In this document: positions 37,268-37,395 of the stretch, in pieces
Layout: each line of letters starts with the position of its first letter
How positions within the stretch are numbered: position 1 is the stretch's first letter
Origin: Heptranchias perlo
Taxonomy: Eukaryota
Direction of reading: 5' to 3'
Length of the DNA: 64,000 nt
NCBI RefSeq assembly: GCF_035084215.1
Contig: NC_090330.1
Location: 107,384,001 to 107,448,000 of the forward strand
Program-made: the position numbers and the translations under genes
Notes under the pieces: model-generated
Databases searched by the model: none
What the model was told of the DNA's origin: nothing
Seen by the model: only the letters and a program-made list of their open reading frames with translations

Positions 37268-37313
37268 ACTTTCATTTTCTATTTTCAGAATGTGACGACT
37301 GAAATTCCCGGAA
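37268..37313. promoter_or_regulatory. Candidate interferon-responsive module: ISRE/IRF site plus overlapping kB-like and GAS (STAT) sites
   Basis: ACTTTCATTTTCT (37268-37280; reverse strand AGAAAATGAAAGT, fitting GAAANNGAAA), GAAATTCCC (37301-37309) and consensus GAS TTCCCGGAA (37305-37313), in a locally CpG-enriched unique patch 3 kb 5' of the deaminase ATG. Confidence 0.45.
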
Positions 37314-37395
37314 AAGACGACAGAGGCTGTCAAAGAGGAACTCGGAGTTTGACGTGGTTCCTGAGGGTCGCTTTAGTAATTCCCGATAGTCTCTG
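37289..37395 (+). other. Putative non-coding 5' exon of the deaminase gene
   Basis: CpG-enriched unique segment ending in donor CTG|GTAAAC (GT at 37396). The 5' boundary is uncertain: either a TSS downstream of the GAS site or the acceptor TTTTCAG at 37288. Confidence 0.35.

What the first reader, a model, noticed from the sequence alone, without database searches (positions are those of the whole stretch)
37268..37395. Compact ISRE + GAS/kB cluster at the probable 5' end of the deaminase gene
Seen: within 46 bp there is an IRF/ISRE-type GAAAATGAAAGT (minus strand), a TGACG half-CRE (37293), a kB-like GAAATTCCC and a consensus STAT GAS TTCCCGGAA. These are followed by a CpG-enriched patch and a splice donor at 37396. 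Known: ISRE plus GAS composites are typical of interferon-stimulated gene promoters. Inference: the deaminase is an ISG, functionally paralleling mammalian APOBEC3s. Caveats: the ISRE overlaps a pyrimidine tract ending in TTTTCAG, so it could simply be a splice acceptor, and short motifs occur by chance.
Basis: partly seen in the sequence, partly recalled or inferred. Interest (0 to 1): 0.7.

Follow-up and report, generated by a model that had tools for sequence, protein, structure and literature searches.

The report
Interferon switch on shark APOBEC5 gene
A rare pair of interferon-response DNA sites sits at the edge of a spliced, non-coding exon that likely leads the shark's APOBEC5 DNA-editing enzyme gene, so interferon is predicted (untested) to switch this antiviral-type enzyme on, much as it does some human APOBEC3 genes.

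Summary
The IRF/ISRE site (37268-80) and the GAS (37305-13) are the real signal; the TGACG and kB half-sites add little. The ISRE-then-GAS pattern occurs 24 times in the 3.25-Gb genome against 21 for a reversed control, so most copies are chance. But two of the four other CpG-rich copies that I followed lie 170-200 bp before the start codons of ETV7 and of an RBR ligase of a likely interferon-induced kind. The deaminase is the single-copy APOBEC5/NAD1 orthologue, not an APOBEC3. A 1,078-nt contig from a related species uses the 37396 donor and ends exactly at 37287; indels show the exon is non-coding. So the cluster overlaps the 5'-most leader exon seen. Whether 37287 is a transcription start or a splice acceptor is unresolved; human STAT1 has a working IRF-E/GAS element at an intron/exon boundary, so the two readings do not exclude each other. 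Motif conservation, factor binding and induction are untested. Verdict: likely (0.65) a real ISRE+GAS composite making shark APOBEC5 interferon-inducible; a new member of a known kind.

The parts
37268..37280 (-). IRF-E/ISRE (GAAAATGAAAGT); same 13 letters as the ISRE listed for human UBE2L6; also forms the pyrimidine tract
   Evidence: PMC10287828 Table S4
37284..37289 (+). TTCAGA: acceptor-like YAG (AG at 37287-88) and at once an initiator-like site with A at 37287; the relative's contig ends here
   Evidence: Inr consensus recalled; which role is used is not resolved
37289..37395 (+). non-coding leader exon (107 nt from the AG; donor CTG|GTAAAC at 37396); carries a start-stop ATG at 37290
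   Evidence: contig of run X10 matches 37287-37370, continues homologous to 37395, then leaves the genome; 1-nt deletion at 37339 and two inserted letters break the open frame
37293..37297 (+). TGACG half-CRE; no weight
   Evidence: 39 copies in the window
37300..37309 (-). kB-like GGGAATTTCA overlapping the GAS; imperfect
   Evidence: consensus recalled
37305..37314 (+). GAS TTCCCGGAAA, the only TTCCNGGAA in the window; same as the GAS listed for human NMI, SMG1, ZC3HAV1 and RIPK1; lies inside the exon
37137..37251 (+). unassigned upstream signals: TATA-like AATAAATA (37137), Inr-like TTCAGT (37168), second acceptor-like AG (37241-42) and a strong donor ATG|GTAAGA (37246); possible alternative start/first exon
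   Evidence: recalled consensus scans; no RNA support
40113..40904 (+). deaminase exon of APOBEC5: likely acceptor 40112|40113, conserved start ATG 40338, HAE...SPCANC zinc motif, donor 40905
   Evidence: the acceptor rests on three letters (GAA) of the contig, the best of 3 AG|GAA sites
42536..42584 (+). short coding exon of APOBEC5
   Evidence: tblastn of P0001, donor check
44795..44994 (+). last coding exon of APOBEC5, with TPKK, TPRK and terminal RRTLF

Best explanation
The cluster is an ISRE/IRF-E plus GAS pair at the 5' edge of a spliced non-coding exon that likely leads the shark APOBEC5 (NAD1) gene, and it is predicted to make that deaminase interferon-inducible. Predicted mechanism: interferon-activated STAT1 dimers would bind the GAS inside the exon and IRF1 or ISGF3 the ISRE just upstream, raising transcription either from a start at or near 37287 (about 0.30) or, as at the human STAT1 intron 1/exon 2 boundary, from a start further upstream with the ISRE doubling as the pyrimidine tract of a splice acceptor (about 0.35). 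Shown: the motifs, their rarity, the exon, its donor, its non-coding nature, the identity of the gene. Inferred: the join to the deaminase exon. Untested: start site, binding, induction.
For: Both sites match validated human composite sites letter for letter and the 24-nt linker is inside the 0-415 nt range. Only 24 such pairs in 3.25 Gb. Of the 4 other matches in unique CpG-rich DNA, one lies 170 bp before the ETV7 start codon (ETV7 is a strongly induced human ISG, 10.1101/851543 passages) and one 199 bp before the start of an RBR-only ligase like the salmon ARIT genes induced by IFN-gamma (PMC12234341 passages; orthology not tested). About 0.035 of 23 matches would fall so near a start codon by chance (my estimate, assuming 20,000 genes). 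An IRF7-like gene of this genome has an ISRE and GAS 56 bp apart upstream of a TATA box. The pyrimidine tract explains the ISRE only weakly: 3 of 1,947 acceptor-like sites carry one. The exon is real. Marsupial APOBEC5 mutates DNA and modestly restricts Vif-deficient HIV-1 (10.1101/2025.05.21.655229, parts 1-3).
Against: 24 matches against 21 for the reversed control: no genome-wide excess, so most copies are chance; the CpG split (5 of 24 against 0 of 21) has p=0.051, 0.11 without this site, with thresholds set after seeing the data. The exon is no better conserved than the intron in the related species (92% against 92-94%), and 4 of its 6 substitutions could not be placed, so the GAS may be altered there; the ISRE was not covered. 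Only 1 of 2 runs of that species and 0 of 2 own-species runs covered the exon past 37308; an own-species contig runs unspliced from upstream of 37130 through the AG. An ISRE 8-19 bases before a start would crowd the core promoter, whereas the ETV7, RBR and IRF7 elements lie upstream of their first coding exons. Opossum A5 is broadly expressed without stimulation. Only 1 of 6 IRF genes examined had such a pair.
Confidence: 0.65

Rival explanations
1. Chance: 37289-37395 is an ordinary internal 5'UTR exon, the ISRE-like letters are its pyrimidine tract and the GAS is accidental; APOBEC5 is driven constitutively from an upstream promoter (candidates: CpG patch 26387-26677, exon-like 25022-25120).
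For: Reversed control gives 21 matches against 24; loose ISRE+GAS pairs occur 0.49 times per 64 kb; the contig ends on the AG itself, as a graph branch at an acceptor would if the upstream exon ended in AG; exon not more conserved than intron; broad basal expression of opossum A5.
Against: ISRE in 3 of 1,947 acceptor-like tracts and strict GAS in 4 of 1,947 following exons, jointly about 3 in a million per acceptor; the two matches that could be tied to a start codon are at ETV7 and an RBR ligase of a likely inducible kind; no loose end or second contig upstream of 37287 was listed.
Confidence: 0.27
2. The element works, but not as an interferon switch for APOBEC5: the GAS serves another STAT pathway (for example STAT3 or STAT5), or it is an enhancer of a neighbour (IPO5-like gene 12 kb downstream, RAP2A-like gene 53 kb upstream).
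For: TTCCCGGAA is a general STAT palindrome (established knowledge); the ISRE is IRF1-type, not the strict ISGF3 form; neighbours placed (names recalled from their sequences).
Against: It overlaps the APOBEC5 leader exon; the neighbours are housekeeping-type genes with their own CpG islands (IPO5-like at 48700-49600); IRF1+STAT1 pairs are the usual IFN-gamma arrangement (PMC10287828 passages).
Confidence: 0.06
3. The exon is coding and adds an N-terminal extension, so the motifs are by-products of codons.
For: One frame of 37289-37395 is open and in phase with the acceptor at 40291|40292.
Against: The relative's copy has a 1-nt deletion and two inserted letters; its next exon starts GAA, fitting 40113 and not 40292; 8 of the 10 aligned orthologues start at the matching Met within one residue and the NCBI model starts at 40338.
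Confidence: 0.02

Closest known systems
Human ISRE+GAS composite promoters, such as UBE2L6, APOL6, RIPK1, CFB, NMI (PMC10287828: passages, and Table S4)
   Same: ISRE identical to UBE2L6's 13-mer, GAS identical to NMI/RIPK1, ISRE-GAS order, 24-nt linker, position at a promoter/5'UTR region
   Different: No binding or induction data here; the GAS lies inside the transcribed exon and the ISRE abuts an AG; target is a deaminase family absent from placental mammals
[quoted passage not shown]
   Same: IRF element and GAS straddling an intron/exon-type boundary near the 5' end of a gene
   Different: Only one full IRF element here; it is not shown that the AG is spliced in the shark
APOBEC5/NAD1 of marsupials, lizards, amphibians and jawed fish (10.1101/2025.05.21.655229, parts 1-3 of 8; PMC5889660, passages)
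   Same: Zinc motif, MPL start, disordered tail with PxK, single copy, same clade as Tasmanian devil A5 (38% identical over 272 columns; clade support 100/98)
   Different: Terminal motif is RRTL, not KRKL; the preprint's main text has no occurrence of interferon, promoter, UTR or shark
Interferon-induced human APOBEC3A/3G (recalled)
   Same: Antiviral-type cytidine deaminase under predicted interferon control
   Different: Separate clade; any shared regulation would be convergent or older than both

Membership tests
ISRE+GAS composite element | ISRE core GAAANNGAAA with accepted flanks | tested here: met
   same 13 letters as human UBE2L6; strict GAAACT ending not present
ISRE+GAS composite element | GAS TTCCNGGAA | tested here: met
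ISRE+GAS composite element | linker within the known 0-415 nt range | tested here: met
   24 nt against Table S4
ISRE+GAS composite element | lies at the promoter or 5'UTR of its target | tested here: inconclusive
   overlaps the 5'-most exon seen in one contig; contigs cannot show a start; join to the deaminase exon inferred from 3 letters and contig length
ISRE+GAS composite element | conserved in related species | tested here: inconclusive
   ISRE not covered; 4 of 6 exon substitutions unplaced; metagenome scan for other loci found none
ISRE+GAS composite element | bound by STAT1/ISGF3/IRF1 and needed for induction | not testable with these tools
   needs ChIP, reporter and interferon treatment
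STAT1 IGI-type boundary element | sits on a used intron/exon boundary | tested here: inconclusive
   contig ends on the AG, no upstream exon seen
STAT1 IGI-type boundary element | IRF elements on both sides of the GAS | tested here: not met
   next IRF core downstream is at 43556
APOBEC5/NAD1 | HAE...PCxxC zinc motif | tested here: met
   H55 A56 E57, P89 C90, C93 invariant in 11 of 11 rows
APOBEC5/NAD1 | groups with marsupial A5, apart from AID, APOBEC2 and APOBEC3 | tested here: met
   32-row tree, 15-row clade at 100/98; devil P0004 has the preprint's H55, P239xK and K256RKL; Pfam alone ranks APOBEC2 (134 bits) just above NAD1 (127 bits)
APOBEC5/NAD1 | C-terminal PxK and KRKL motifs | tested here: inconclusive
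   PxK twice; KRKL replaced by RRTL, RRML in the sawshark protein
APOBEC5/NAD1 | typically single copy | tested here: met
   2 matches in the genome, the second an APOBEC2-like ORF at 29%
APOBEC5/NAD1 | DNA mutator activity | not testable with these tools
   shown for marsupial A5 only

The most novel reading that the evidence does not exclude
APOBEC5 is the ancient interferon-induced antiviral deaminase of jawed vertebrates, filling the role that APOBEC3 later took in placental mammals, and in sharks it is switched on by an element in which one stretch of DNA serves as IRF site, pyrimidine tract and start or splice point at once.
Probability: 0.3. Interest if true: 0.75.

Novelty: new member of a known kind. 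Interest (0 to 1): 0.5.

Why it matters
Fish lack APOBEC3, and a zebrafish-human ISG comparison left open what does its job there (10.1101/693333, passages). APOBEC5 has only just been characterised, in marsupials, and I found no report of its regulation. A 46-bp element with two mutable sites makes 'is APOBEC5 an interferon-stimulated gene?' directly testable in the oldest lineage that has interferons. The pattern also picked out the ETV7 and RBR-ligase 5' ends, so it is a usable way to nominate shark ISGs.

Tried and rejected
Own-species runs X5-X8 laid on 32300-46000: swamped by repeats, 15 of 224 joints shown, none at an annotated splice site; listed pieces are unspliced and of low depth, so no statement on expression. 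No holder on record as RNA was listed. Run X9 gave no cover of the exon and X8 none of 37130-37552: no evidence either way. Viperin as a positive control failed: no first (CxxxCxxC) exon was found in 90 kb. IRF1-like gene: no GAS of my middle pattern in 30 kb, but the human IRF1 GAS would not fit that pattern either. Two of the four CpG-rich matches followed (C14:6500757 between DCTN4-like and RBM22-like exons; C1286) could not be tied to a start codon; for six further matches only 32 ORFs were scanned and 13 of the 23 were not searched for genes; one CpG-rich match (L132) was left out of the count because it lies on a repeat. Metagenome scan for APOBEC5 loci: none. Word search of 5.8 billion proteins found only the window's own protein. 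Earlier-finding look-ups near the place, by sequence, by words and in relatives were empty. Coding-exon and 3-nt micro-exon readings rejected (indels; a 43-nt intron would be unusually short). My first placing of the inner acceptor at 40294 was wrong; it is 40291|40292. bioRxiv supplements could not be seen: the zebrafish ISG tables and the APOBEC5 species list may bear on whether the RBR ligase and ETV7 are fish ISGs and whether shark A5 was already listed.

Full report
Observation. All four motifs are at the stated places: an IRF-E/ISRE at 37268-37280 on the minus strand, TGACG at 37293, a kB-like 10-mer at 37300-37309 (9 of 10 to the recalled consensus) and the GAS TTCCCGGAA at 37305-37313, within 46 bp. 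An AG stands at 37287-88 and a GT at 37396. The stretch 37134-37806 is unique DNA between repeats. TGACG occurs 39 times in the window and carries no weight; the CpG patch is modest (5.3% of 128-bp windows reach it).

Chance. In 660 kb of background (40 arbitrary 10-kb stretches plus 26 flanking ones) there were 15 IRF-E and 11 strict GAS sites and no pair within 100 bp; the expected number per 64 kb is 0.0024. With the loosest patterns it is 0.49 per 64 kb and the window holds two. A pyrimidine tract raises the odds of an ISRE-like word, but only to 3 of 1,947 acceptor-like sites. A whole-genome search for ISRE, 0-30 bases, GAS gave 24 matches including this one, against 21 for the pattern read backwards. 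So the pair is rare, but there is no genome-wide excess and most copies must be chance; position has to decide.

The gene. The ORF from 40338 is NCBI XP_067842678.1, labelled APOBEC-3C-like, in three coding exons. Its nearest relatives are from a sawshark, elephant shark, coelacanth, gar, bichir, paddlefish, lizards and Tasmanian devil. In a 32-row tree it falls in a 15-row clade (100/98) with the devil protein and apart from AID, APOBEC2 and APOBEC3-like rows. The devil protein carries the residues that the APOBEC5 preprint numbers (H55, P239xK, K256RKL; 10.1101/2025.05.21.655229, parts 1-3 of 8 read). This is the NAD1 clade of PMC5889660 (passages). It is single copy and lies between RAP2A-like and IPO5-like genes (names recalled). 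Orthologues begin at the matching Met, so anything upstream is leader.

RNA evidence. Twelve runs hold the deaminase exon, none on record as RNA. Four own-species runs gave only low-depth unspliced pieces amid repeats. On 37130-37925 at 80% likeness, one of two runs of a related species (X10) gave a 1,078-letter contig of depth 16 whose end lies at 37287. It matches 37287-37370 with 6 substitutions and a 1-base deletion, its loose part stays homologous to 37395 and then reads GAA, and none of the rest fits the intron, although other contigs of the same run match that intron at 92-94%. So the donor at 37396 is used. GAA fits the acceptor 40112|40113, the best of three AG|GAA sites before the ATG, and the remaining 968 letters fit exon 2, exon 3 and part of exon 4; this join is inferred, not seen. 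The indels break the one open frame, so the exon is non-coding. No loose end and no second contig were listed upstream of 37287. That base is both the A of the AG and the A of an initiator-like TTCAGA (consensus recalled), and contigs cannot show a start, so first exon and internal exon remain about equally likely. Four of the six substitutions lie within 30 letters of a piece end and were not listed, so the state of the GAS in that species is unknown; the ISRE was not covered. An own-species contig of depth 2.6 runs unspliced from before 37130 to 37308, which may be DNA or precursor RNA from an upstream start.

Calibration in this genome. I fetched all 23 other matches and all 21 controls. 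Five of 24 real matches, this one included, and 0 of 21 controls lie in non-repeat DNA with at least 12 CpG per 400 bp and o/e at least 0.6; one more was set aside as a repeat; p is 0.051, or 0.11 without this site, and the thresholds were chosen after seeing the data. I followed the four others. One is 170 bp upstream of the start codon of the ETV7-like gene; ETV7 is a strongly induced ISG in human cells (10.1101/851543, passages). One is 199 bp upstream of the start of an RBR-only E3 ligase, of a kind that resembles the salmon ARIT genes induced over 2,000-fold by IFN-gamma (PMC12234341, passages; orthology not tested here; lead from earlier finding e1-8593502). Two could not be tied to a start codon. 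About 0.035 of 23 random places would fall within 250 bp of a start codon (my estimate, assuming 20,000 genes). Separately, 1 of 6 IRF genes examined, an IRF7-like one (name is my reading of the translation), has a perfect ISRE and a GAS 56 bp apart, 158-225 bp upstream of a TATA box. The viperin control failed.

Mechanism. The best reading is a composite element: STAT1 dimers on the GAS and IRF1 or ISGF3 on the ISRE would raise APOBEC5 transcription after interferon. Both sites are letter-for-letter those of human composites (ISRE of UBE2L6; GAS of NMI and RIPK1) and the 24-nt linker is within the reported 0-415 nt (PMC10287828, passages and Table S4). I put 0.65 on function (about 0.30 as a start-site promoter, 0.35 as a boundary element under an upstream start), 0.27 on chance, 0.06 on another pathway or target, 0.02 on a coding exon. 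Against function: no excess over the reversed control, no sign that the exon is better conserved than the intron, thin RNA support (one contig), an ISRE awkwardly close to a start if 37287 is one, and broad basal expression of opossum A5.

Novelty. ISRE+GAS composites are a known kind, and APOBEC5 is described. I found no report of interferon control or of a promoter for APOBEC5 (searches, seen as listings; the preprint's main text has no occurrence of interferon, promoter, UTR or shark; its supplements could not be seen). The zebrafish ISG study notes that fish lack APOBEC3 and asks what replaces it (10.1101/693333, passages; supplements not seen). If induction holds, APOBEC5 is a candidate for that role across non-placental jawed vertebrates. 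Verdict: observation confirmed, interpretation partly supported, new member of a known kind, interest 0.5.

Noticed in passing
L129:4980-5002 (G000:C30:4893380): Overlapping ISRE/GAS 170 bp upstream of the ETV7-like start codon, built like the human PARP14 element; a likely shark ISG promoter.
   Followed up: yes
L122:5045-5088 (G000:C13:50483045): ISRE+GAS above several CCAAT boxes, 199 bp upstream of an RBR-only E3 ligase; a ubiquitin-like ORF lies about 6.5 kb further upstream on the same strand (L169:1533-1964).
   Followed up: partly
L055:1215-1446 (G000:C12:74535215-74535446): IRF7-like gene with a perfect ISRE, a GAS and a TATA box, directly below a long GC-rich tandem array.
   Followed up: partly
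L027-L035 (G000:C5:36600001-36690000): Two partial viperin copies with no exon for the iron-sulfur motif found in 90 kb; an IRF1-type site beside TGACG in a CpG patch at 36648151 and an ISRE at 36641085 are unassigned.
   Followed up: partly
window 41164-42795: In all four own-species runs this intron stretch is covered by long contigs at 2-10 times the depth of its neighbours; possibly a separate or antisense transcript.
   Followed up: no
window 37137-37251: TATA-like and Inr-like sites 34 bases apart followed by a strong donor at 37246, too close to 37289 to splice to it; a possible alternative first exon.
   Followed up: partly
window 26387-26790 and 25022-25120: Unique CpG-rich patch (o/e 1.02) with a strong donor at 26787, and an exon-like stretch ending GAAG|GTAAGT; candidates for upstream APOBEC5 leader exons or a separate non-coding gene. 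A similar exon end recurs near 32985.
   Followed up: partly
window 44795-44994: The APOBEC5 tail has two TPxK sites and a terminal RxL, resembling CDK sites with a cyclin-docking motif (recalled); TP and R.L are nearly invariant in 11 aligned proteins, hinting at cell-cycle control.
   Followed up: no
window 37290 and 40274: The predicted 334-nt leader has two upstream ATGs (a start-stop and a 13-codon ORF), both out of frame with the main ATG.
   Followed up: no
window 40899 and 40905: Two GT donors 6 bases apart at the end of the deaminase exon; the sawshark protein is two residues shorter there, as the upstream donor would give.
   Followed up: no
window 22048-23131, 29391-30480, 32064-32263: Arrays of one 31-bp tandem repeat family, interrupted by SINE-like inserts.
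   Followed up: no
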